Part shown: in pieces, positions 1 through 5,860 of the stretch
How the letters are laid out: the number at the start of each line of letters is the position of its first letter
Position numbering within the stretch: position 1 is the first letter of the stretch
From: a virus
Taxonomy: Duplodnaviria > Heunggongvirae > Uroviricota > Caudoviricetes
Virus record (IMG/VR): IMGVR_UViG_3300029121_000098
Strand: one strand, 5' to 3'
Length of the DNA: 5,860 nucleotides
Made by a program: the position numbers and the translations under genes
Notes under the pieces: generated by a model
Seen by the model: the letters and a program-made list of their open reading frames with translations, nothing else
Database searches by the model: none
What the model was told of the DNA's origin: nothing

Positions 1-1
1 T

Positions 2-157
2 ATGAAGCAGCAAAAGGCGATGTTAATCGCCCTGATCGTCATCTGTTTAACCGTCATAGTGACGGCACTGGTAACGAGGAAAGACCTCTGCGAGGTACGA
101 ATCCGAACCGGCCAGACGGAGGTCGCTGTCTTCACAGCTTACGAACCTGAGGAGTAA
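2..157 (+). CDS. hokD: Hok/Gef-family type I membrane toxin, 51 aa (HokD/RelF-like)
   Basis: ATG at 2, TAA at 155-157. Translation MKQQKAMLIALIVICLTVIVTALVTRKDLCEVRIRTGQTEVAVFTAYEPEE: one hydrophobic helix plus a charged tail with a conserved Cys, matching the Hok/Gef family as I recall it. Absent from the ORF track because it is short. The mok/sok partners would lie upstream, outside the window. Confidence 0.88.
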   Translation: MKQQKAMLIALIVICLTVIVTALVTRKDLCEVRIRTGQTEVAVFTAYEPEE

Positions 158-164
158 GAGACCC

Positions 165-186
165 GGCGAGGGAGAAATCCCTCGCC
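165..186 (+). other. Perfect 9-bp stem-loop with GAAA tetraloop in the hok 3' UTR (candidate hok mRNA folding/processing element)
   Basis: GGCGAGGGA-GAAA-TCCCTCGCC; all nine pairs are Watson-Crick, starting 8 nt after the hok stop. Hok mRNAs are known to carry structured 3' elements (fbi); which element this is remains inference. Confidence 0.4.
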
Positions 187-225
187 ACCTCTGATGTGGC
201 AGGCATCCTCAACGCACCCGCACTT

Positions 226-252
226 AACCCGCTTCGGCGGGTTTTTGTTTTT
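226..252 (+). terminator. Rho-independent terminator downstream of hokD
   Basis: AACCCGC-TTCG-GCGGGTT hairpin followed by TTTTGTTTTT. Confidence 0.6.
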
Positions 253-373
253 ATTTTCAACGCGTTTGAAGTTCTGGACGGTGCCGGAATAGAATCAAAA
301 ATACTTAAGTAGCGCGCAGGGATAAGAGGGATGGTCCCTTAAAGGGGAGAGCTAATTATCCGGAAGAATTCTG

Positions 374-625
374 ATGATGAACATCGAAGAACTGCGTAAA
401 ATTTTTTGTGAAGATGGCCTCTATGCTGTGTGCGTTGAAAATGGAAATCTTGTTAGTCATTACCGCATTATGTGTTTGCGAAAGAATGGGGCTGCGTTAA
501 TTAATTTTGTGGATGGTCGAGTGACAGACGGATTTATCTTGCGCGAAGGTGAGTTTGTCACTTCATTACAGGCACTGAAAGAGATCGGAATAAAAGCAGG
601 CTTTTCAGCTTTTGCAGAAGAATAA
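374..625 (+). CDS. rem: Rem-like small prophage protein, 83 aa
   Basis: 83-aa ORF starting MMNIEELRKIF..., same length and gene neighbourhood (hokD - rem - ydfU) as Qin prophage Rem in E. coli K-12 as I recall it; weak GGAAG Shine-Dalgarno 8 nt upstream. Confidence 0.75.
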   Translation: MMNIEELRKIFCEDGLYAVCVENGNLVSHYRIMCLRKNGAALINFVDGRVTDGFILREGEFVTSLQALKEIGIKAGFSAFAEE

Positions 626-691
626 ACTCATCTACAATCTTGCGCGGGGCTGAACTCCCGCTGAGTAACACCGTGCCACCGGAGAAAACCG

Positions 692-970
692 ATGGCACGC
701 AACGTAAAATATTACAATTCTGATAATTCGCCCGTTCTTGCCTGCACGCACGAGCGGTATTCTCACGCATTCAAGTCTGAATGGTTCCAGCACCCTCCAT
801 GCACTGAAGAGCAGGCTGAATGGATAATTCAGTGTTACCGCAGGCGCGGATACGAGGTTAAGAAAGCCCTTAGTCTCGACTACCGTCACTGGATAATCTC
901 AGTCAGATTGCCTTACTCCGAACGCCCACCGCGTCCGTCCCGTACATTCCAGCAACGCATCTGGAGGTAA
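692..970 (+). CDS. Hypothetical prophage protein, 92 aa, Cys/His-containing
   Basis: ATG start with GGAGA Shine-Dalgarno about 7 nt upstream. Its stop (968-970) lies inside the Shine-Dalgarno/start region of the next gene (GGAGGTAACGTG), indicating translational coupling. No family recognised. Confidence 0.5.
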   Translation: MARNVKYYNSDNSPVLACTHERYSHAFKSEWFQHPPCTEEQAEWIIQCYRRRGYEVKKALSLDYRHWIISVRLPYSERPPRPSRTFQQRIWR

Positions 971-971
971 C

Positions 972-2021
972 GTGCGGGTATTACTTCGACCTGTTCTGGT
1001 ACCGGAACTCGGGCTGGTGGTCGTTAAGCCGGGCCGTGAATCCATGCCGGTATTCCACAATACCCGGGTACTGGTGGAGCCGGAACCGAAAAGCATGCGT
1101 AATCTGCCGTCCGGGGTCGTTCCTGCCGTTCGCCAGCCGCTGGTGGAAGACAAAACATTGCTGCCGTTTTTCAGTAACGCACGGGTAATTCGTGCTGCTG
1201 GTGGTGCTGGTGCATTGTCTGACTGGCTGTTGCGCCATATTAAATCCTGCCAGTGGCCACACGGCGATTATCATCACAGCGAAACCGTTATTCACCGTTA
1301 TGGTACCGGCGCAATGGTGTTGTGCTGGCACTGCGACAACCAGCTGTGTGACCAGACATCCGAATCACTCGAGCAGCTTGCTCATCAAAACCTGTCAGCA
1401 TGGATGATTGACGTCATCGGTCACGCAATAAGCGGTACGCAGGAGCGTGAATTATCTCTGGCTGAATTATCCTGGTGGGCGGTCCGCAATCAGGTGGCGG
1501 ACGCGCTACCGGAAGCGGTATTACGTCGTTCGCTGGGGTTGCGTGCGGAAAAAATCCGCTCAATGTACCGTGAAAGCGACATCGTACCGGGAGAGCAGAC
1601 CGCCACCAGCATACTGAAACAGCGCACAAAAAATCTTGCGCCGCTGCCTCACGCCCACCAGCAACAGAACCCACCACAGGAAAAGACGGTGGTCAGCATT
1701 GCCGTTGATCCTGAGTCTCCGGAATCTTTTATGAAACGACCTAAACGTCGCCGCTGGGTTAACGAGAAATACACACGCTGGGTGAAGACACAGCCGTGTG
1801 CGTGTTGTGGTAAGCCAGCCGACGATCCCCATCACCTGATTGGTCATGGTCAGGGCGGAATGGGGACAAAATCTCACGATATTTTCACGCTACCGCTGTG
1901 TCGGGAGCATCACAACGAGCTTCATGCGGATCCGCTGGCGTTCGAAGAAAAGCATGGTTCTCAGGTTGATTTAATTTTTCGTTTTCTTGATCACGCCTTT
2001 GCAACTGGCGTGCTTGGGTAA
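972..2021 (+). CDS. ydfU: YdfU-like prophage protein, 349 aa, with C-terminal HNH-like Cys/His motif
   Basis: GTG start preceded by GGAGG. Length and N-terminus (MRVLLRPVLVPELGLVV...) match Qin prophage YdfU as I recall it. C-terminal segment CACCGKPADDPHHLIGHGQGGMGTKSHDIFTLPLCREHHNELH resembles a zinc-binding HNH-type nuclease motif. Confidence 0.8.
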   Translation: MRVLLRPVLVPELGLVVVKPGRESMPVFHNTRVLVEPEPKSMRNLPSGVVPAVRQPLVEDKTLLPFFSNARVIRAAGGAGALSDWLLRHIKSCQWPHGDYHHSETVIHRYGTGAMVLCWHCDNQLCDQTSESLEQLAHQNLSAWMIDVIGHAISGTQERELSLAELSWWAVRNQVADALPEAVLRRSLGLRAEKIRSMYRESDIVPGEQTATSILKQRTKNLAPLPHAHQQQNPPQEKTVVSIAVDPESPESFMKRPKRRRWVNEKYTRWVKTQPCACCGKPADDPHHLIGHGQGGMGTKSHDIFTLPLCREHHNELHADPLAFEEKHGSQVDLIFRFLDHAFATGVLG

Positions 2022-2033
2022 AAGAGGTGACTG

Positions 2034-2408
2034 ATGCTCATAGATTTGGTTTTACCTTACCCGCCGACGGTGAACACTTACTGGCGACGCCGTGGCAGCA
2101 CATATTTTATCTCGGAGGAGGGAAAGCGTTATCGCCGGGCTGTGGCGCTTATTGTTCGCCAGCAGCGGCTGAAATTAAGCCTGTCCGGAAGGCTGGCGAT
2201 AAAGGTGATTGCAGAGCCACCGGATAAGCGTCGTCGCGACCTGGACAATATCCTGAAAGCACCGCTGGATGCGCTGACGCATGCGGGAGTGTTAATGGAC
2301 GATGAGCAGTTTGATGAAATCAATATCGTTCGTGGTCAGCCAGTATCTGGTGGACGTATGGGGGTGAAGATTTACCCCATAATGCATGAAGAGCAGGTCA
2401 AAAAATGA
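2034..2408 (+). CDS. rusA: RusA-family crossover junction endodeoxyribonuclease (Holliday junction resolvase), 124 aa
   Basis: AGAGGTG Shine-Dalgarno upstream. The acidic core PDKRRRDLDNILKAPLDALTHAGVLMDDEQ aligns with the [30 protein letters not shown] region of E. coli RusA as recalled. Position between the nin-like genes and Q is typical. Confidence 0.82.
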   Translation: MLIDLVLPYPPTVNTYWRRRGSTYFISEEGKRYRRAVALIVRQQRLKLSLSGRLAIKVIAEPPDKRRRDLDNILKAPLDALTHAGVLMDDEQFDEINIVRGQPVSGGRMGVKIYPIMHEEQVKK

Positions 2409-3226
2409 AACTGGAAGATTTACCGAAATACTACTCCCCAAAATCCCCTTGCCTGACCGATGCATCGGCTTCAACGTCAAAAGATGCGCTGAGTATCACT
2501 GATGTGATGGCCGCGCAGGGCATGACACAGAATCGGGCTGAGATGGGGTTTTCTGCGTTCCTGGGGAAAATGGGCATCAGTATGAATGACAGGGCACGGG
2601 CAACAGAATTACTGGCAGATTATGCACTCAGTCGGTGCGATCGTGTGGCGGCGTTGAGAAAACTTCCGGCAGAAATAAAACCGGTAGTGATGCGCATTAT
2701 GGCTTCGTACGCTTTTGAGGATTATGCCCGCAGCGCAGCGAGTAAAAAGCAGTGCCCTTGTTGCTATGGGGAAAAATTTATTGAAAGCGTAGTTTTTACA
2801 AACAAGGTCCAGTATCCGGATGGTAAGCCGCCGGTATGGGCAAAGTGTACGAAAGGTGTGTATCCGTCTTACTGGGAAGAATGGAAAAAAGTCAGGGAGG
2901 TGGTAAAAGTTGCCTGTCCGGAGTGTGGCGGAAAGGGTGAGGTTTCCACCGTCTGTAAGGATTGCCGTGGGCGTGGTGTCGCCATTCACCGTGAAGAGTC
3001 GGTAAAACGTGGTATGCCTGTTATCAGAGACTGCCAGCGTTGTGGTGGTCGTGGCTATGAAAGACTACCATCAACGGAGGCATTTAATGCTATATGCGAG
3101 GTGACAAACCAGATAACACGCGCGTCATGGGAAAAAACAGTTAAGAAATTCTATGATGCGCTGGTGACCCGGTTTGATATTGAAGAAGCATGGGCTGAGC
3201 GGCAGTTAAAAAAGGTAACTAGGTAA
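2405..3226 (+). CDS. Q: Lambda-type late antiterminator Q, 273 aa, with an enlarged Cys-rich insertion
   Basis: ATGA overlap with the rusA stop. Blocks KYYSPKSP, TDVMAAQGMTQNRAEMGFSAFLGK, ASYAFEDYARSAA, CQRCGGRGYERLP and SWEKTVKKFYDALV...VTR align with lambda Q (KFHSPKSP, TDVMAAMGMAQSQAGFGMAAFCGK, ATFAYADYCRSAA, CGRCKGVGYSRMP, TWSRTVKPLYDALV...VTR) as I recall it. Sits immediately upstream of a pR'-like promoter. Confidence 0.88.
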   Translation: MKLEDLPKYYSPKSPCLTDASASTSKDALSITDVMAAQGMTQNRAEMGFSAFLGKMGISMNDRARATELLADYALSRCDRVAALRKLPAEIKPVVMRIMASYAFEDYARSAASKKQCPCCYGEKFIESVVFTNKVQYPDGKPPVWAKCTKGVYPSYWEEWKKVREVVKVACPECGGKGEVSTVCKDCRGRGVAIHREESVKRGMPVIRDCQRCGGRGYERLPSTEAFNAICEVTNQITRASWEKTVKKFYDALVTRFDIEEAWAERQLKKVTR

Positions 3227-3231
3227 CAAGG

Positions 3232-3275
3232 TTGATTTTTCCGGAATCTGTGGTAAATTCATCATAATGATGGGC
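3232..3275 (+). promoter_or_regulatory. pR'-like late promoter with a promoter-proximal sigma70 pause element (Q engagement region)
   Basis: -35 TTGATT (3232-3237), 16-nt spacer, -10 TAAATT (3254-3259), identical to the lambda pR' -10 as I recall it. It is followed by CATCATAATGATGGG, a -10-like repeat resembling the lambda pause-inducing ACGATGGG segment. Confidence 0.55.
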
Positions 3276-3307
3276 TTTTTATGCCTGACGTTAGAAGAGT
3301 TTCTACA

Positions 3308-3332
3308 ACCCGCCGCCGAGCGGGTTTTTTAT
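3308..3332 (+). terminator. tR'-like rho-independent terminator
   Basis: ACCCGC-CGCCGA-GCGGGT hairpin followed by TTTTTTATT, about 45-65 nt downstream of the predicted start site. Confidence 0.6.
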
Positions 3333-3369
3333 TGCGGAATTAATTACGGACCGTTATTATTCTGCTCCC

Positions 3370-3445
3370 GGCCCTTTAGCTCAGTGGTGAGAGCGAGCGA
3401 CTCATAATCGCCAGGTCGCTGGTTCAAATCCAGCAAGGGCCACCA
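3370..3445 (+). tRNA. ileZ: tRNA-Ile2 (anticodon CAT, presumably lysidine-modified to read AUA)
   Basis: Cloverleaf fits: acceptor GGCCCTT/AAGGGCC, D-arm GCTC...GAGC, anticodon loop CTCATAA, T-arm CGCTGG-TTCAAAT-CCAGC, encoded CCA. Near-identical to E. coli ileX as recalled; the C4:G69/C5:G68 acceptor pairs fit an Ile2 (TilS substrate) rather than an elongator Met. Confidence 0.85.
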
Positions 3446-3528
3446 TCACAAACCGCCATTAGCTTATCAGGAAGAGCAGACGACACGATAACAGGGTTGT
3501 TGGTGCGGGGGCGGGTCCCCGATGGCGG

Positions 3529-3605
3529 TCGTTGTTAGCTCAGCCGGACAGAGCAATTGCCTTCTAAGCAATCGGTCACTGGTTCGAATCCAGTACAGCG
3601 CGCCA
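3529..3605 (+). tRNA. argO: tRNA-Arg (anticodon UCU, reads AGA)
   Basis: D-arm GCTC-AGCCGGACA-GAGC, anticodon stem ATTGC/GCAAT with loop CTTCTAA, T-arm ACTGG-TTCGAAT-CCAGT, encoded CCA. The 1:72 acceptor pair is T:C in my fold, so the 5' boundary is uncertain by 1-2 nt. Confidence 0.75.
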
Positions 3606-3715
3606 TATTCATTCTTCCAGATTCCTTCCGGCAGAGCCTTATACTGGAATATACCTGGCTCAGGATATTGTTGAAAACATAATATGTTTGTCAAAAATAA
3701 AAGTTCTGTTAAGTA

Positions 3716-4069
3716 TTGATTGAGTGTTTGTTATACGGTCTAATGGTTTTTTCAGCATTAAATATTTATCATTCATATGGTGTGGGTAGAGTGAATATTG
3801 ATGAGGCGTCGGGGTGTTTCATCCTTAGGCAGCGTATTGATATAGTCAATGCAGCACGAGCAAAGGCCTTCAGCCGTTTGACAGTTTTGTTCTGTGCTCC
3901 TGATCGTCTTTCGGGAAGAGACGTTATTATTCTGAATAGTGATGCTATACAGAGGGTTTGCGATGAGTTCATGGTTGCTAATTCAGAATTATTTGCTCTT
4001 GTTCAGGAGTACAACAGAATAGCCAGGACCTGTGGTATGGATGAACTTCGGATTACTCATCTGGGGTAG
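3716..4069 (+). CDS. Hypothetical 117-aa ORF (TTG start, no clear RBS); possibly a gene remnant
   Basis: Only ORF longer than 100 aa in the roughly 1-kb AT-rich stretch after the tRNAs; same strand as all flanking genes. The first in-frame ATG (3743) also lacks a Shine-Dalgarno. No family recognised. Confidence 0.3.
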   Translation: MIECLLYGLMVFSALNIYHSYGVGRVNIDEASGCFILRQRIDIVNAARAKAFSRLTVLFCAPDRLSGRDVIILNSDAIQRVCDEFMVANSELFALVQEYNRIARTCGMDELRITHLG

Positions 4070-4533
4070 ATACATATCTGGATTATCACCTGTTACGGTA
4101 AAAAGTGATTGCTTACTGTTTTTGTGAATGGCATTGCAGCAGCCGGATAATATCAGTGCTGGCTGACGGTGTGCTGGTGGCGGGTGTGGTGGTTGTTGCT
4201 TTCCCGTTGCTGAAAAAGAAAACGCCAGACTGTTAGCCGGGTATCAGTTAGCGGGAGAAATTTTTAAATACTTCACAATTCAGGCGGTTGACTGTTCTCT
4301 GGTTTGCGGGGAGTTTGTTAAAAGAAACTGGCATGGTGAATCCCCCTGTGCGGAGGGGCAATCAGCGAGTAGGTATATGGGATAATCGCGGATTCAGGTG
4401 CTGGTACTGAATTCACCCGGCACCATGCACTTCAATAGATTCTCTCCACATTATGGATATTCTTTCAGAATATCCCACGCAGACTTTGTGTAAATGTTAA
4501 CAAATGTGCGTTTTATTTGATCTGATTCGCTGT

Positions 4534-4563
4534 TTGAGCGTCCAAAACAACGGTATATATAAT
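4534..4563 (+). promoter_or_regulatory. Candidate sigma70 promoter for the TolA-like lipoprotein genes
   Basis: -35 TTGAGC (4534-4539), 18-nt spacer, consensus -10 TATAAT (4558-4563), about 30 nt upstream of the 4593 start codon. Confidence 0.4.
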
Positions 4564-4592
4564 CCTTTACTATATGACATATGTGAGGAAAA

Positions 4593-5021
4593 ATGGGTTT
4601 TCGTAGCGCATCAATTCTTACGTTGATTATTAGTGGGATTATTATCGGGTGCACTGATGCTGTATCGACAAATTATCATGACCGTACATCATATTACTCC
4701 GATAAAGCAATAGAGACACAGTATGTGAGTTCATCTGAACGTACTTCTGATGTTAGTGAGGATATCCGTCTGTATGCCCATCAAATCAAGAGCGCCATCG
4801 AAAAACAGTTCGGGGATGCGAGTAAGTATTCAGGAAAAGAGTGTACACTGAGAATGCATATGGCCCCGAATGGCCTTCTACTGGAGGTTAAAAGAGAAAG
4901 TGGAGACCTCGATTTATGTCGTGAAGCGATGAATGCGATAAAGAATGCTGATATACCTGCCCCCCCTTCGCCGGAAGTATATAAAGTATTTCAAAATGGG
5001 GTGCTGGATTTTAAACCCTGA
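4593..5021 (+). CDS. Lipoprotein with C-terminal TolA domain III-like fold, 142 aa
   Basis: GAGGA Shine-Dalgarno before the ATG. Signal peptide MGFRSASILTLIISGIIIG with lipobox Cys (IIGC), then a Ser/Thr/Tyr-rich linker. The C-terminus IKSAIEKQFGDASKYSGKECTLRMHMAPNGLLLEVKRESGDLDLCREAMNAIKNADIPAPPSPEVYKVFQNGVLDFKP aligns almost residue for residue with the E. coli TolA C-terminus (QIKSAIESKFYDASSYAGKTCTLRIKLAPDGMLLDIKPEGGDPALCQAALAAAKLAKIPKPPSQAVYEVFKNAPLDFKP) as I recall it, including both cysteines. Confidence 0.8.
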   Translation: MGFRSASILTLIISGIIIGCTDAVSTNYHDRTSYYSDKAIETQYVSSSERTSDVSEDIRLYAHQIKSAIEKQFGDASKYSGKECTLRMHMAPNGLLLEVKRESGDLDLCREAMNAIKNADIPAPPSPEVYKVFQNGVLDFKP

Positions 5022-5171
5022 TATTTATTGTTTTGTAATAAACGGTTTCGGCTTAGGTTTGTTCTGACACAACTACGGCACTGAGCTAAATTTAGCGGAT
5101 AGTCAGCTCTGAGCCAGTGGCGGACGTAACAACTACTATTGCTGAGATTTTAATGGATTGAGGAGCAAGAA

Positions 5172-5567
5172 GTGGGATTAAAGAAAATCGTTATGTTGAC
5201 TTTTTGGGTCGGTTTTGTTGCGGGATGCACACCTTTACACCCTTCAGATTGCCACAAAACTACTGCTACAGGTAGTTGCAGTTCAGGACGCTGGGATGAT
5301 CAGGATGAATGGGGGGCGCAAGCGCGGGGAATCAGAGCTGCAATTAATGCCAAACTTGATGAGCCGCATAACTGGAAAGGGAAAAAATGCAGGTTGCATA
5401 TGGAATTCTCTCAGGATGGCACGGCGTTAAAAATATCTACCAGTAATGGTGATAAAGCCTATTGCGAAGCGATAAAGTCCGCAGCTCATAAAGCCAAATT
5501 TCCGGCCTTCAACAATCCGGAAGTCTACAGAGATTTTCAGAAATCTGGCTTTGACATGCGAGGTTAG
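5172..5567 (+). CDS. Second, divergent TolA domain III-like lipoprotein (paralogue), 131 aa
   Basis: GTG start 6 nt after a GAGGAG Shine-Dalgarno. Signal peptide MGLKKIVMLTFWVGFVAG with lipobox Cys (VAGC). C-terminus GIRAAINAKL...GKKCRLHMEFSQDGTALKISTSNGDKAYCEAIKSAAHKAKFPAFNNPEVYRDFQ aligns with the upstream paralogue and with TolA domain III, keeping both cysteines. Confidence 0.75.
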   Translation: MGLKKIVMLTFWVGFVAGCTPLHPSDCHKTTATGSCSSGRWDDQDEWGAQARGIRAAINAKLDEPHNWKGKKCRLHMEFSQDGTALKISTSNGDKAYCEAIKSAAHKAKFPAFNNPEVYRDFQKSGFDMRG

Positions 5568-5692
5568 CTCTTCAATTACTATATCTCATTCATAGCAAAC
5601 TGACAGATTTGATGATGTTCTATATACGAAACCTGTGATGTCAAGTCTGAGCTAATACAAATAAACATAATATCAGAGAAATACATTTTATT

Positions 5693-5716
5693 AGCTCGCT
5701 ACGGCGAGCTTTTTAT
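5693..5716 (+). terminator. Rho-independent terminator downstream of the lipoprotein pair
   Basis: AGCTCGC-TACG-GCGAGCT hairpin followed by TTTTAT. Confidence 0.5.
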
Positions 5717-5860
5717 ATTGCATCGTCTCCAGCATATATATCAATTAAGGCTCTGATTGATGTGTCTGGAAGCCTACACATAATAACTGGATTTGCCCCT
5801 ATATTTCCAGACATCTGTTATCACTTAACCCATTACAAGCCCGCTGCCGCAGATATTCCC

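What the first reader, a model, noticed from the sequence alone, without database searches (positions are those of the whole stretch)
3606..5720. Cargo (moron) region in the position stx occupies in Stx phages
The order Q, then pR'/tR', then tRNA-Ile2 and tRNA-Arg is the arrangement that precedes stxAB in Shiga-toxin phages. Here the slot holds a visibly more AT-rich segment carrying a hypothetical ORF and the two TolA-like lipoprotein genes, which have their own candidate sigma70 promoter (4534-4563) and terminator (5693-5716). The genes could therefore be expressed both in the lysogen and, through Q antitermination, during induction. That is the classical signature of lysogenic-conversion cargo.
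Basis: partly seen in the sequence, partly recalled or inferred. Interest (0 to 1): 0.6.

Follow-up and report, generated by a model that had tools for sequence, protein, structure and literature searches.

The report
TolA-decoy lipoprotein cargo in stx slot
Between the late-gene switch and the lysis genes of a Qin-like E. coli prophage, exactly where Shiga-toxin phages carry stx, sits a swappable AT-rich cargo block whose main load is two outer-membrane lipoproteins that copy the tip of the host TolA protein and most likely act as decoys against colicins and filamentous phages.

Summary
Window 3606-5720 is 41.8% GC against 51.0% for the backbone. It lies between Q/pR'/tR'/tRNA-Ile2/tRNA-Arg and the holin. 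It carries two real genes for lipoproteins with a TolA C-terminal domain (TolAIII), bracketed by the best sigma70 match and a strong terminator.

Comparative genomics supports the cargo reading. Related prophages hold iraM, cspB/cspF, a methyltransferase, only tRNAs, or stx2AB in this slot. In strain W24 a tolA-like gene replaces argO plus stx2AB between flanks 86-97% identical to an Stx2a phage.

The region is a mosaic. The left block (a phrog_2873 gene, a DUF3927/TciB-like ORF, an STnc100 sRNA) is shared with other cargoes. The TolA module proper is about 4414-5788 and occurs at 99% identity or more in 772 of 5426 complete E. coli genomes, behind at least two Q types.

Relatives of gene 2 sit on IncI1/B/O plasmids, on pO157 and on Enterobacter and Citrobacter chromosomes. 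A Klebsiella bacteriocin plasmid pairs a TolAIII lipoprotein with an exported TonB C-terminal domain.

Function is inferred: uncoupled periplasmic TolAIII decoys that give tolerance to Tol-dependent colicins and filamentous phages. Expression and phenotype were not tested.

The parts
2405..3226 (+). Late antiterminator Q (273 aa). Upstream anchor of the slot.
   Evidence: PF03589 E=2e-54. PGAP annotates the homologue as 'antitermination protein'.
3232..3259 (+). Candidate late promoter pR': TTGATT, 16-nt spacer, TGgTAAATT (extended -10).
   Evidence: My own reading of the sequence. It scores 8 of 12, below the scan threshold. The position is between the Q stop codon and tR'. The -10 TAAATT matches lambda pR' as I recall it, which I did not verify here.
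3307..3333 (+). tR' intrinsic terminator. The homology breakpoint of several relatives falls at 3330.
   Evidence: Terminator scan. Fold of -11.2 kcal/mol. SLK172 homology ends at 3330.
3370..3445 (+). tRNA with anticodon CAU, the tRNA-Ile2 (ileZ) type.
   Evidence: ARAGORN. Rfam 72.5 bits. PGAP annotates tRNA-Ile. The tRNA block 3330-3613 is 84% identical to the ileZ region of an Stx2a phage.
3529..3605 (+). tRNA-Arg (UCU), which reads the rare AGA codon.
   Evidence: ARAGORN. Rfam 59.1 bits.
3791..4069 (+). Conserved gene of unknown function (phrog_2873). The longest ORF starts at 3716 (TTG). The conserved 92-aa core starts at GTG 3791.
   Evidence: phrog_2873 E=2e-69. dN/dS 0.27 against the L015 copy. 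PGAP does not annotate it in relatives.
4105..4236 (+). 43-aa DUF3927 small hydrophobic protein, TciB-like.
   Evidence: PGAP 'DUF3927 family protein'. phrog_1470 'TciB-like inhibition of cell division or resistance to colicin', E=1.5e-11.
4302..4482 (+). STnc100-family prophage sRNA gene. Its canonical GC-rich terminator is replaced from about 4420 onward by an AU-rich hairpin with no U-tract.
   Evidence: Rfam RF02076, 84.9 bits against a gathering score of 47. Alignment with six other copies. Fold.
4414..4420 (.). Left recombination boundary of the TolA module, inside the sRNA gene.
   Evidence: Homology with the iraM-carrying prophage L006 ends at 4420. Homology with the Rac-like prophage L016 begins at 4414.
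4534..4563 (+). Candidate sigma70 promoter of the tolA-like operon (TTGAGC-18-TATAAT).
   Evidence: Best + strand match, 10 of 12. It lies 30 nt upstream of the ATG and inside the mobile module. It is not conserved upstream of the divergent L015 gene.
4593..5021 (+). TolA-like lipoprotein 1 (142 aa): signal peptide, lipobox IIGC with Cys20, about 30 disordered residues, then a TolAIII domain at residues 51-142.
   Evidence: PF06519 E=2e-23. 59% identity to E. coli TolAIII over 88 aa. AF2 pLDDT about 90 and 0.7 A rmsd to 2X9A_B and 1TOL. Lipobox kept in variants at 65% identity. dN/dS 0.34. SD GAGGA lies 6 nt upstream.
5172..5567 (+). TolA-like lipoprotein 2 (131 aa, GTG start): lipobox VAGC with Cys19, a conserved Cys-rich linker, then a TolAIII-like domain at residues 43-131.
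   Evidence: PF06519 E=1e-14. 34% identity to TolAIII. AF2 pLDDT above 90. 118 of 120 homologues have a lipobox. dN/dS 0.11-0.12 against the plasmid copies. SD GAGGAG lies upstream of the GTG.
5693..5716 (+). Intrinsic terminator closing the tolA-like operon, just upstream of the holin.
   Evidence: Seven-pair stem with 5 GC pairs plus TTTTTAT. -13 kcal/mol, z=-3.7.
5788..5860 (.). End of an IS2 element, inserted at the right edge of the cargo about 31 bp before where essD (holin) starts in relatives.
   Evidence: 73 nt are 100% identical to the IS2 end annotated in L001. Relatives run on from window 5788 into essD. Homology with K-12 Qin resumes at the equivalent of about 5792.

Best explanation
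Window 3606-5788 is accessory (moron) DNA in the hypervariable slot between the Q-dependent late promoter/terminator and the lysis cassette of a Qin-like lambdoid prophage. This is the slot that holds stxAB in Stx phages.

It is a mosaic of two parts. The left block (3606 to about 4420) holds a phrog_2873 gene, a TciB-like 43-aa ORF and an STnc100-family sRNA. The same block also accompanies other cargoes such as iraM. The right block (about 4414-5788) is a self-contained module: a candidate promoter, two genes and a terminator. Modules appear to be exchanged by recombination within the conserved STnc100 sequence and at the holin-proximal edge.

The two genes encode lipoproteins. By the +2 rule (Thr after the lipid-modified Cys), they should be anchored in the inner leaflet of the outer membrane. 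From there they would hang a TolA domain III into the periplasm on a flexible tether of about 25-30 residues.

These copies lack TolA domains I and II, so they cannot couple to the TolQR motor. I infer that they act as decoys. They would capture the TolA-binding epitopes of incoming group A colicins and of filamentous-phage g3p as these emerge at the periplasmic face of the outer membrane, which would stall import and make the lysogen tolerant.

In the lysogen the operon would run from its own promoter and stop at the 5693 terminator, so it would not read into the holin. After induction, Q-modified polymerase starting at pR' must traverse it on the way to the lysis genes.

What is shown: anatomy, homology, fold, mobility, purifying selection and slot equivalence. 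What is inferred: localisation, expression and the decoy function. The confidence given (0.5) is for the whole statement including the decoy mechanism. For cargo status alone I would put it at about 0.9.
For: Slot and cargo status:
- The same backbone carries different inserts.
- The TolA module is present at 99% identity or more in 772 of 5426 complete E. coli genomes. Q plus the tRNAs are in 1269, and the whole arrangement is in 358.
- The same module sits behind a DUF1133-type antiterminator in a Rac-like prophage.
- A tolA-like gene replaces argO plus stx2AB between Stx2a-phage-like flanks.
- GC is 41.8% against 51.0%.

The genes are real:
- dN/dS is 0.34 for gene 1 and 0.11-0.12 for gene 2.
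- The lipobox is conserved across variants at 65% identity and in 118 of 120 gene-2 homologues.

TolAIII identity:
- HMMER E=5e-28 and 5e-9 against PDB TolAIII chains.
- The gene-1 model superposes at 0.7 A on TolAIII from the g3p complexes.
- The ligand-binding beta3 strand is kept in protein 1 (APLDFKP in TolA, GVLDFKP here), as are E381, A391 and F419. The ColA box LLDIKP becomes LLEVKR (alignment, mapped with PMC4339652).

Decoy logic:
- g3p, ColN and TolB bind beta3 by strand addition, and ColA binds beta2 (PMC7391070, PMC4339652).
- Colicins bind about 40 times tighter than TolB: 1 uM for ColN against 40 uM for TolB (PMC4339652).
- TolAIII exported to the periplasm perturbs Tol function in vivo, causing periplasmic leakage (PMC6195910, citing Wan & Baneyx 1998 and Levengood-Freyermuth 1993).
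- From my own recollection, not verified here, the 1993 paper also reported colicin tolerance.

Context elsewhere:
- Gene-2 relatives at 88% identity lie on about 600 plasmids, next to the IncI1/B/O relaxase and on pO157. IncI pili are receptors for the TolA-dependent phage IF1 (PDB 2X9A).
- A 10-kb Klebsiella bacteriocin plasmid carries a TolAIII lipoprotein next to a Sec-exported TonB C-terminal domain, beside a colicin-like tRNase bacteriocin/immunity/lysis operon.
- 53 of 72 short homologues found among 1.8 billion representative proteins have lipoboxes.
Against: - There are no transcript, localisation or phenotype data of any kind.
- The promoter is a consensus match only, and it is absent upstream of the divergent W24 gene.
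- Protein 2 is only 34% identical to TolAIII, and both binding strands have changed (SGFDMR, ALKIST). Its ligand may therefore differ.
- Gene-2 relatives are stand-alone chromosomal genes among ordinary metabolic genes in Enterobacter kobei and Citrobacter. That fits a general envelope role as well as a defensive one.
- PADLOC has no matching defence model, and PHROG 5772 is 'unknown function'.
- A TolAIII decoy could also titrate TolB and damage the envelope, which would be a cost.
- In this window IS2 separates the cargo from the holin, so the prophage copy here is probably defective for lysis.
Confidence: 0.5

Rival explanations
1. Late-phase envelope saboteurs. The TolAIII lipoproteins are made mainly from the Q-antiterminated late transcript. 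They titrate TolB or otherwise jam Tol-Pal. That would loosen the outer membrane, raise vesiculation or leakage, and so help lysis and the release of virions or periplasmic contents.
For: - The genes lie on the late transcript path between pR' and the holin, on the same strand.
- Signal-sequence-directed TolAIII overproduction releases periplasmic proteins (PMC6195910).
- The Tol-Pal review suggests that modulating TolB-TolA contacts could regulate vesicle formation (PMC7391070).
Against: - The same families occur on conjugative plasmids, on a bacteriocin plasmid and as stand-alone chromosomal genes, none of which have a lytic phase.
- The module has its own promoter-like site and a terminator that insulates it from the holin. 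That suits expression in the lysogen.
- The TolA-TolB affinity is weak, at 40-200 uM (PMC7391070).
- Lambdoid phages already have spanins for the outer membrane.
Confidence: 0.2
2. An envelope lipoprotein with a physiological role unrelated to colicin or phage import, for example a second outer-membrane-side partner for TolB/Pal/CpoB under some stress. It would then be carried by mobile elements simply as a fitness gene.
For: - Gene-2 relatives at 78-89% identity sit at a fixed chromosomal position among ordinary metabolic and regulatory genes in Enterobacter kobei, and in Citrobacter.
- Purifying selection is very strong, and the Cys-rich linker is highly conserved with no counterpart in TolA.
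Against: - No operon partner or regulatory clue points to a specific physiology.
- The recurring association with elements that attract or deliver Tol-dependent agents argues for defence: IncI plasmids, a bacteriocin plasmid where it is paired with a TonB-CTD, and prophages.
- Protein 1 keeps the parasite-binding strand of TolA almost unchanged.
Confidence: 0.2
3. The tolA-like ORFs are decaying fragments of a captured host tolA gene. This is what PGAP implies when it flags gene 1 as 'incomplete; missing N-terminus'. On this view the AT-rich region is junk between Q and the holin.
For: PGAP marks the gene-1 homologue as a pseudogene in several genomes.
Against: - Both reading frames are complete, with Shine-Dalgarno sequences, signal peptides and lipoboxes.
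- dN/dS is 0.11-0.34.
- The lipobox is retained while the signal-peptide sequence diverges.
- The modelled folds are confident.
- In strain W24, PGAP annotates the divergent (65-67% identity) variant of this 142-aa protein as an intact CDS.
- The pseudogene flag arises because a full-length TolA model is applied to a protein that has only the C-terminal domain (NCBIfam scores are below the equivalog cut-off).
Confidence: 0.03
4. The region is ancestral phage backbone rather than cargo.
For: The whole 2.6-kb arrangement is 98-99% conserved in 358 genomes and in one deposited phage genome.
Against: - Five other contents were found in the same slot on the same backbone.
- The module occurs behind different antiterminators.
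- Only 1 of 50,697 phage records carries these genes.
- The base composition is deviant.
Confidence: 0.02

Closest known systems
stxAB locus of Stx-converting lambdoid phages (Q - pR'/tR' - ileZ/argN/argO - stxAB - STnc100 - nanS-p - holin)
   Same: - The slot, the strand and the tRNA genes are the same (the 3330-3613 block is 84% identical).
- An STnc100 sRNA lies next to the cargo in both.
- Late read-through is obligatory in both.
- In strain W24 a tolA-like gene literally replaces argO plus stx2AB.
   Different: - The cargo is a pair of envelope lipoproteins, not an AB5 toxin.
- The Q here is a PF03589 273-aa type, not the 144-aa Q of phage WGPS8.
- No link to virulence is known.
Morons of lambdoid phages (lambda bor and lom; the cspB/cspF block of K-12 Qin; iraM in related prophages)
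   Same: An AT-rich insert between backbone genes with its own promoter-like site and terminator. It is variably present among otherwise homologous prophages.
   Different: The gene content differs. Expression in the lysogen has not been shown for this insert.
Phage lipoproteins that block entry of competitors: T5 Llp and the Cor proteins of phi80/N15/mEp167, which inactivate FhuA
   Same: A small lipoprotein of the inner leaflet of the outer membrane, encoded by a phage and proposed to protect the cell from agents that cross the envelope.
   Different: - Llp and Cor bind and plug the outer-membrane receptor.
- The proteins here copy the periplasmic energy-transducer tip, TolAIII. They would act after receptor binding as decoys for the translocation step.
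- There is no sequence relationship. The comparison rests on my own knowledge plus bioRxiv 10.64898/2026.03.26.714494, listed.
E. coli TolA domain III (PDB 1TOL, 2X9A, 3QDP, 3QDR, 1S62)
   Same: - The fold is the same (0.7 A rmsd).
- Protein 1 is 59% identical and protein 2 is 34% identical.
- The disulfide cysteines and the C-terminal beta3 strand LDFKP are conserved in protein 1.
   Different: There is no transmembrane domain I and no helical domain II, so no coupling to TolQR. A lipoprotein signal peptide and a short tether take their place.
Laboratory constructs that export TolAIII (or the TonB C-terminal domain) to the periplasm
   Same: A free C-terminal domain in the periplasm competes with the native transducer. 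It causes periplasmic leakage (PMC6195910). By my recollection of Levengood-Freyermuth 1993, it also causes colicin tolerance.
   Different: These are natural genes, lipid-anchored, carried on mobile elements and under purifying selection.

Membership tests
Moron / lysogenic-conversion cargo of a lambdoid prophage | Present in some and absent from other otherwise homologous phage genomes, at a fixed inter-gene position. | tested here: met
   Six different contents were found in the Q-to-holin slot on related backbones. Breakpoints fall at 3330, 4414-4420 and about 5788.
Moron / lysogenic-conversion cargo of a lambdoid prophage | Base composition differs from the flanking phage genes. | tested here: met
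   GC 41.8% against 51.0%. GC3 0.36-0.42 against 0.48-0.55.
Moron / lysogenic-conversion cargo of a lambdoid prophage | Its own promoter and terminator, so that it is an autonomous transcription unit. | tested here: inconclusive
   The terminator is strong. The promoter is a 10-of-12 consensus match inside the mobile module, but promoter-like sites are common here (12 found against 6.7 expected) and this one is not conserved in the W24 variant.
Moron / lysogenic-conversion cargo of a lambdoid prophage | Expressed from the repressed prophage and changes the host phenotype. | not testable with these tools
   Needs RNA-seq or 5' end mapping, plus phenotype assays.
Stx-phage stx slot | Located downstream of Q, pR'/tR' and the ileZ/arg tRNA genes, and upstream of the holin, on the late strand. 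| tested here: met
   Direct replacement of argO plus stx2AB by a tolA-like gene in L015.
TolA C-terminal domain (Pfam PF06519) | Score above the Pfam gathering threshold, and the TolAIII fold. | tested here: met
   82.6 and 54.6 bits against a cut-off of 25. Foldseek E=1e-11, TM 0.95 and 0.7 A to 2X9A_B. The protein 2 model has the same order of secondary-structure elements, with pLDDT above 90.
Full-length TolA (NCBIfam equivalogs PRK09510 and TIGR02794) | Transmembrane domain I, long helical domain II and domain III, with a score above the equivalog cut-off. | tested here: not met
   Against PRK09510 the scores are 107.8 and 53.7 bits, with a cut-off of 213. Only profile positions of about 293-387 match. 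The proteins are 142 and 131 aa long. The PGAP gene name 'tolA' is therefore a misnomer.
Bacterial outer-membrane lipoprotein | Signal peptide ending in a lipobox [LVI][ASTVI][GAS]C, with no Asp at position +2. | tested here: met
   IIGC followed by TD, and VAGC followed by TP. The feature is conserved in homologues. Lipidation and sorting themselves were not tested.
STnc100 sRNA (Rfam RF02076) | Score above the gathering threshold over the full model, including the 3' intrinsic terminator. | tested here: inconclusive
   84.9 bits against 47, over model positions 1-206. However, the GC-rich terminator and U-tract seen in other copies (132-172 bits) are replaced by an AU-rich hairpin with no U-run.
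Known anti-phage defence systems (PADLOC-DB) | Match to a curated defence-protein model. | tested here: not met
   No hit at E <= 0.01 for any of the four cargo proteins.

The most novel reading that the evidence does not exclude
Lipid-anchored or secreted copies of the C-terminal domains of TolA (and, on some plasmids, TonB) form a widespread and so far uncharacterised class of mobile-element defence genes in Enterobacterales. They would be 'transducer-tip decoys' that neutralise Tol- or Ton-dependent colicins, klebicins and filamentous phages at the translocation step. Prophages would carry them in the stx slot, IncI-type plasmids next to the relaxase, and bacteriocin plasmids next to the toxin operon. 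The conserved STnc100 sRNA gene would double as the recombination joint that shuffles such cargoes between lambdoid phages.
Probability: 0.4. Interest if true: 0.7.

Novelty: new member of a known kind. Interest (0 to 1): 0.45.

Why it matters
Why the finding would matter:
- The Q-to-holin slot is where Shiga toxin is carried and regulated. Knowing what else occupies it, and how cargoes are swapped, bears on how new converting phages arise.
- The main cargo here is present in about 14% of complete E. coli genomes. Close relatives sit on pO157 and on IncI1/B/O resistance plasmids. No functional study turned up in the literature searches.
- If the proteins are TolA decoys, they would be a new and common way to become tolerant to colicins and filamentous phages. 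That is relevant to bacteriocin- and phage-based therapeutics and to competition in the gut.
- There is also a practical annotation point. PGAP names these genes 'tolA' or flags them as pseudogenes. Both labels are misleading.

Tried and rejected
- Literature searches for a characterised prophage or plasmid TolA-like lipoprotein found nothing specific. PMC10269471 only notes 'TolA and TolB family proteins' on a CloDF13-like plasmid. PMC2948877 concerns the host tolA.
- The 1993 paper on periplasmic TolA fragments (PMC196117) is not held. Its colicin-tolerance result is therefore cited from memory only.
- tblastn of both proteins against 50,697 phage records found only mEp460_ev081. No survey across phages was possible.
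- The word-index protein search with gene 1 reached only close E. coli and Shigella relatives.
- I looked for a conserved promoter upstream of the divergent W24 gene and found none.
- I looked for a conserved sigma70 promoter upstream of STnc100 in a seven-copy alignment. A conserved GTTGAC block exists, but I could not assign a convincing -10 element.
- PADLOC gave no hits.
- The weak Rfam hits (isrK 166-247, Trp_leader over pR'-tR', sR55, Plastid-ycf2 antisense to the tRNA) are all below their gathering scores, and I treated them as chance or as generic terminator and tRNA resemblance.
- I rejected the pseudogene and backbone readings (see the rival explanations).
- I could not model complexes with g3p, ColA or TolB, because only window or database sequences can be submitted for structure prediction.


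Full report
**What the window is.**
The 5860 bases are the late-control region of a Qin-like lambdoid prophage of E. coli. In order on the + strand:
- hokD, 2-157
- rem, 374-625
- a 92-aa ORF
- ydfU/DUF968, 972-2021
- rusA, 2034-2408
- a PF03589 Q antiterminator, 2405-3226

These assignments come from Pfam and from RefSeq annotation of 98-99% identical chromosomal regions. The same 5.8 kb is 97.9% identical to a record deposited as phage mEp460_ev081.

After Q comes a promoter-like site that I read by eye: TTGATT at 3232-3237, a 16-nt spacer, then TGgTAAATT. It falls below the scan threshold. Next come:
- a terminator hairpin at 3307-3333
- tRNA(CAU), annotated elsewhere as tRNA-Ile/ileZ, at 3370-3445
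- tRNA-Arg(UCU) at 3529-3605

The window ends in 73 nt that are 100% identical to the end of an annotated IS2. This IS2 is inserted about 31 bp before the position where essD (holin) starts in relatives.

**Check of the observation.**
- The segment 3606-5720 is 41.8% GC against 51.0% for 1-3226. GC3 is 0.36-0.42 for the cargo genes and 0.48-0.55 for the backbone genes.
- The promoter-like site at 4534-4563 (TTGAGC-18-TATAAT) is the top + strand match.
- The hairpin at 5693-5710 plus T-run is a good terminator, at -13 kcal/mol and z=-3.7.
- Promoter-like sites are common in this AT-rich DNA (12 found, 6.7 +/- 2.1 expected). The promoter is therefore a candidate and nothing more.

The 'hypothetical ORF' is a real gene. 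It matches phrog_2873 at E=2e-69. Its 92-codon core from GTG 3791 has dN/dS 0.27 against a 71%-identical copy in another prophage.

The two TolA-like ORFs both match PF06519 well above threshold. Both begin with a signal peptide and a lipobox.

1. A 43-aa DUF3927 ORF at 4105-4236. PHROGs files it as 'TciB-like inhibition of cell division or resistance to colicin'.
2. An STnc100-family sRNA gene at 4302-4482, scoring 84.9 bits against a gathering score of 47. STnc100 is a known prophage sRNA. It lies 75 nt downstream of stx2B in Stx2 phages (PMC12370729) and is related to the PasD sRNAs found near Q genes (bioRxiv 10.64898/2026.05.13.724894). I confirmed a 158-bit copy just after stx2B in phage Stx2a_WGPS8.
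3. The region is a mosaic.
   - A prophage of strain ZH063 is 97% identical to the window from 675 to 4420 and then diverges into iraM.
   - A Rac-like prophage of strain 1500 has a different antiterminator (DUF1133 family). It is 99.8% identical from 4414 to 5788 and unrelated to the left of that, apart from a diverged STnc100 5' part.
   - The joint at 4414-4420 lies inside the sRNA gene.
   - Both TolA-carrying contexts have the same AU-rich 3' hairpin with no U-tract, in place of the GC-rich terminator of other STnc100 copies.

**Is it cargo?**
Yes. Prophages that share the backbone and the holin/ydfR/lysozyme cassette carry different contents in the slot:

| Prophage or strain | Content of the Q-to-holin slot |
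|---|---|
| This window | phrog_2873 gene, DUF3927 ORF, STnc100, two tolA-like genes |
| ZH063, AR435 | DUF3927, STnc100, iraM, DUF1737 fragment |
| S1-IND-01-A | tRNA-Ile, tRNA-Thr, tRNA-Gly only |
| SLK172 | a hypothetical gene and a DNA methyltransferase |
| K-12 Qin | ynfS, cspF, cspB, ynfU |

- Homology breaks fall at 3330 (the end of tR'), at 3445 and 3530 (tRNA edges), at 4414-4420 and at about 5788-5792.
- Q plus the tRNAs occur in 1269 of 5426 complete genomes. The whole arrangement occurs in 358. The TolA module alone occurs in 772, at 99% identity or more.
- The strongest single result concerns strain W24. Its flanks are 94% (tRNA-Ile/Arg region), 86% (STnc100) and 97% (nanS-p esterase) identical to Stx2a phage WGPS8. 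That phage has argO plus stx2AB between the first two flanks. W24 has a single 142-aa tolA-like gene there.

**The proteins.**
Protein 1 (142 aa):
- It is 59% identical to E. coli TolA residues 334-421.
- An AlphaFold model has residues 1-50 disordered and residues 51-142 at pLDDT of about 90.
- The model superposes on TolAIII from the IF1-g3p and M13-g3p complexes at 0.7 A.
- It keeps the two disulfide cysteines.
- It keeps the C-terminal beta3 strand that g3p, colicin N and TolB bind by strand addition (APLDFKP in TolA, GVLDFKP here), together with E381, A391 and F419.
- The colicin A box LLDIKP becomes LLEVKR (residue roles from PMC4339652 and PMC7391070).

Protein 2 (131 aa, GTG start with a GAGGAG Shine-Dalgarno sequence):
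- It is 34% identical to TolAIII and has the same predicted order of secondary-structure elements, with pLDDT above 90 for residues 43-131.
- Both binding strands have changed.
- It has a very conserved Cys-rich linker that TolA lacks.

The two proteins are 29% identical to each other.

Both genes are under purifying selection. dN/dS is 0.34 for gene 1 and 0.11-0.12 for gene 2. The lipobox cysteine is retained even where the signal peptide has diverged. PGAP's 'tolA, incomplete, missing N-terminus' label for gene 1 is an artefact of applying a full-length TolA model, since the scores are below the equivalog cut-off.

With Thr at position +2, the established sorting rule predicts an outer-membrane location. 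That is an inference and was not tested.

**Distribution.**
- Only one of 50,697 phage records carries either gene.
- Gene 2 has relatives at 88% identity on about 600 E. coli and Shigella plasmids. They lie directly after the relaxase gene of IncI1/B/O plasmids such as pHUSEC41-1, and between hok and toxB on pO157.
- Relatives at 78-89% identity are stand-alone chromosomal genes in Enterobacter kobei, Citrobacter, Serratia, Raoultella and Klebsiella.
- An exhaustive HMMER search of 1.8 billion representative proteins found 130 relatives. Of these, 72 are 100-170 aa long and 53 of the 72 have lipobox-like signals.
- More distant members sit on Klebsiella IncFII plasmids.
- On a 10-kb ColRNAI plasmid, a TolAIII lipoprotein (LLTAC; C-terminus FKNAPLDFRP) is followed by a Sec-exported TonB C-terminal domain. 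The pair lies beside a colicin-like tRNase bacteriocin/immunity/lysis operon.

**Most likely mechanism (inferred).**
These proteins keep the ligand-binding tip of TolA. They lack the membrane anchor and the helical stalk that couple TolA to the TolQR motor. Tethered under the outer membrane, they would meet the TolA-binding epitopes of group A colicins and of filamentous-phage g3p as these emerge. They would hold those epitopes unproductively. The result would be tolerance.

Three points support this reading:
- Colicin N binds TolAIII at 1 uM, against 40 uM for TolB (PMC4339652). A decoy should therefore capture parasites more effectively than it disturbs the host.
- TolAIII exported to the periplasm is known to perturb Tol function (PMC6195910, which cites Wan & Baneyx 1998 and Levengood-Freyermuth 1993). 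I recall that the 1993 paper also reported colicin tolerance, but I could not read it.
- The association with IncI plasmids fits defence, because their pili are receptors for the TolA-dependent phage IF1 (2X9A). So does the pairing with a TonB-domain protein on a bacteriocin plasmid.

The terminator at 5693 would keep lysogen-phase transcripts out of the holin. Q-modified polymerase from pR' must cross the operon after induction. The STnc100 copy next to the module lacks its terminator, so it might also feed transcription into the operon. That point is unexplained.

**Rival explanations.**
1. Late-phase sabotage of Tol-Pal to aid lysis or vesiculation. This is plausible from the leakage phenotype. 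It is hard to reconcile with plasmid and chromosomal homes and with the insulated operon design.
2. A physiological envelope role unrelated to parasites. The chromosomal copies and the conserved linker of protein 2 suggest this.
3. Pseudogenes. Rejected.
4. Backbone rather than cargo. Rejected.

**Novelty and verdict.**
The Q-to-holin slot is a known hot spot for accessory genes, so the finding is a new member of a known kind. The cargo family is annotated in databases (PGAP names; PHROG 5772, 'unknown function'). I found no functional study of it. The decoy idea, its extension to TonB-domain genes, and the role of STnc100 as a recombination joint are testable hypotheses of moderate to good interest. 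Nothing about expression or phenotype has been shown.

Noticed in passing
window 4302-4482: This is an STnc100-family prophage sRNA gene (84.9 bits). Its canonical GC-rich terminator and U-tract are replaced from about 4420 by an AU-rich hairpin without a U-run. The same variant 3' end accompanies the TolA module in a Rac-like prophage (L016 4876-5062). Transcripts from the sRNA promoter might therefore read into the tolA-like operon, or the sRNA may be defunct.
   Followed up: partly
window 5788-5860: An IS2 end is inserted at the right edge of the cargo, about 31 bp upstream of where the holin gene essD begins in relatives. It should uncouple the lysis cassette from pR'/Q in this genome, which points to a defective prophage. 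In strain STLEFF_47 an IS2 sits inside the holin instead.
   Followed up: partly
L015 7440-8419 (E. coli W24 prophage): Four tandem STnc100 copies (119-142 bits each) lie upstream of the nanS-p esterase gene, and a fifth (172 bits) lies right after the tolA-like gene. Repeated sRNA genes could serve as portable homology for swapping cargo.
   Followed up: partly
L012 5905-6638 (Klebsiella pneumoniae plasmid p44-3, 10,060 bp): A bacteriocin plasmid (colicin-like tRNase, immunity, lysis) also encodes a TolAIII lipoprotein. Its stop overlaps the start of a gene for a Sec-exported TonB C-terminal domain. This looks like a pair of decoys for both import systems. PMC10269471 mentions such genes without interpreting them.
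   Followed up: partly
L010 5965-6396 (pHUSEC41-1, IncI1/B/O) and L013 4965-5396 (pO157-like): An 88%-identical homologue of tolA-like gene 2 lies immediately downstream of the relaxase gene on IncI1/B/O plasmids, and between hok and toxB on pO157. About 600 plasmid records carry it.
   Followed up: partly
L001 7589-7849, L002 7589-7849, L016 5341-5601 (equivalents of window 4761-5021): RefSeq/PGAP annotates tolA-like gene 1 as a pseudogene ('tolA, incomplete, missing N-terminus'). It also starts gene 2 at an internal ATG, which removes the charged n-region of the signal peptide. Both look like annotation artefacts.
   Followed up: yes
window 4105-4236: This 43-aa DUF3927 ORF matches PHROG 1470, labelled 'TciB-like inhibition of cell division or resistance to colicin'. 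The label is an inherited annotation, but it is curious to find it next to TolA-domain genes.
   Followed up: no
window 3791-4069 (longest ORF from 3716): A conserved phage gene of unknown function (phrog_2873, dN/dS 0.27) is left unannotated by PGAP in the closest genomes.
   Followed up: partly
window 1-260: The window opens at the hokD start codon, so the sok antisense gene (106.7 bits in L006 2005-2176) lies just outside it. The hairpin after hokD gives a sub-threshold isrK hit at 166-247 (25.7 bits against a gathering score of 50), probably only terminator resemblance.
   Followed up: no
window 3446-3528 against L001/L002 6247-6346: The spacer between the two tRNA genes is 83 nt here and 100 nt in the closest relatives. 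Other relatives have a second tRNA-Arg, or tRNA-Thr and tRNA-Gly, at this place. The tRNA array is itself variable.
   Followed up: no
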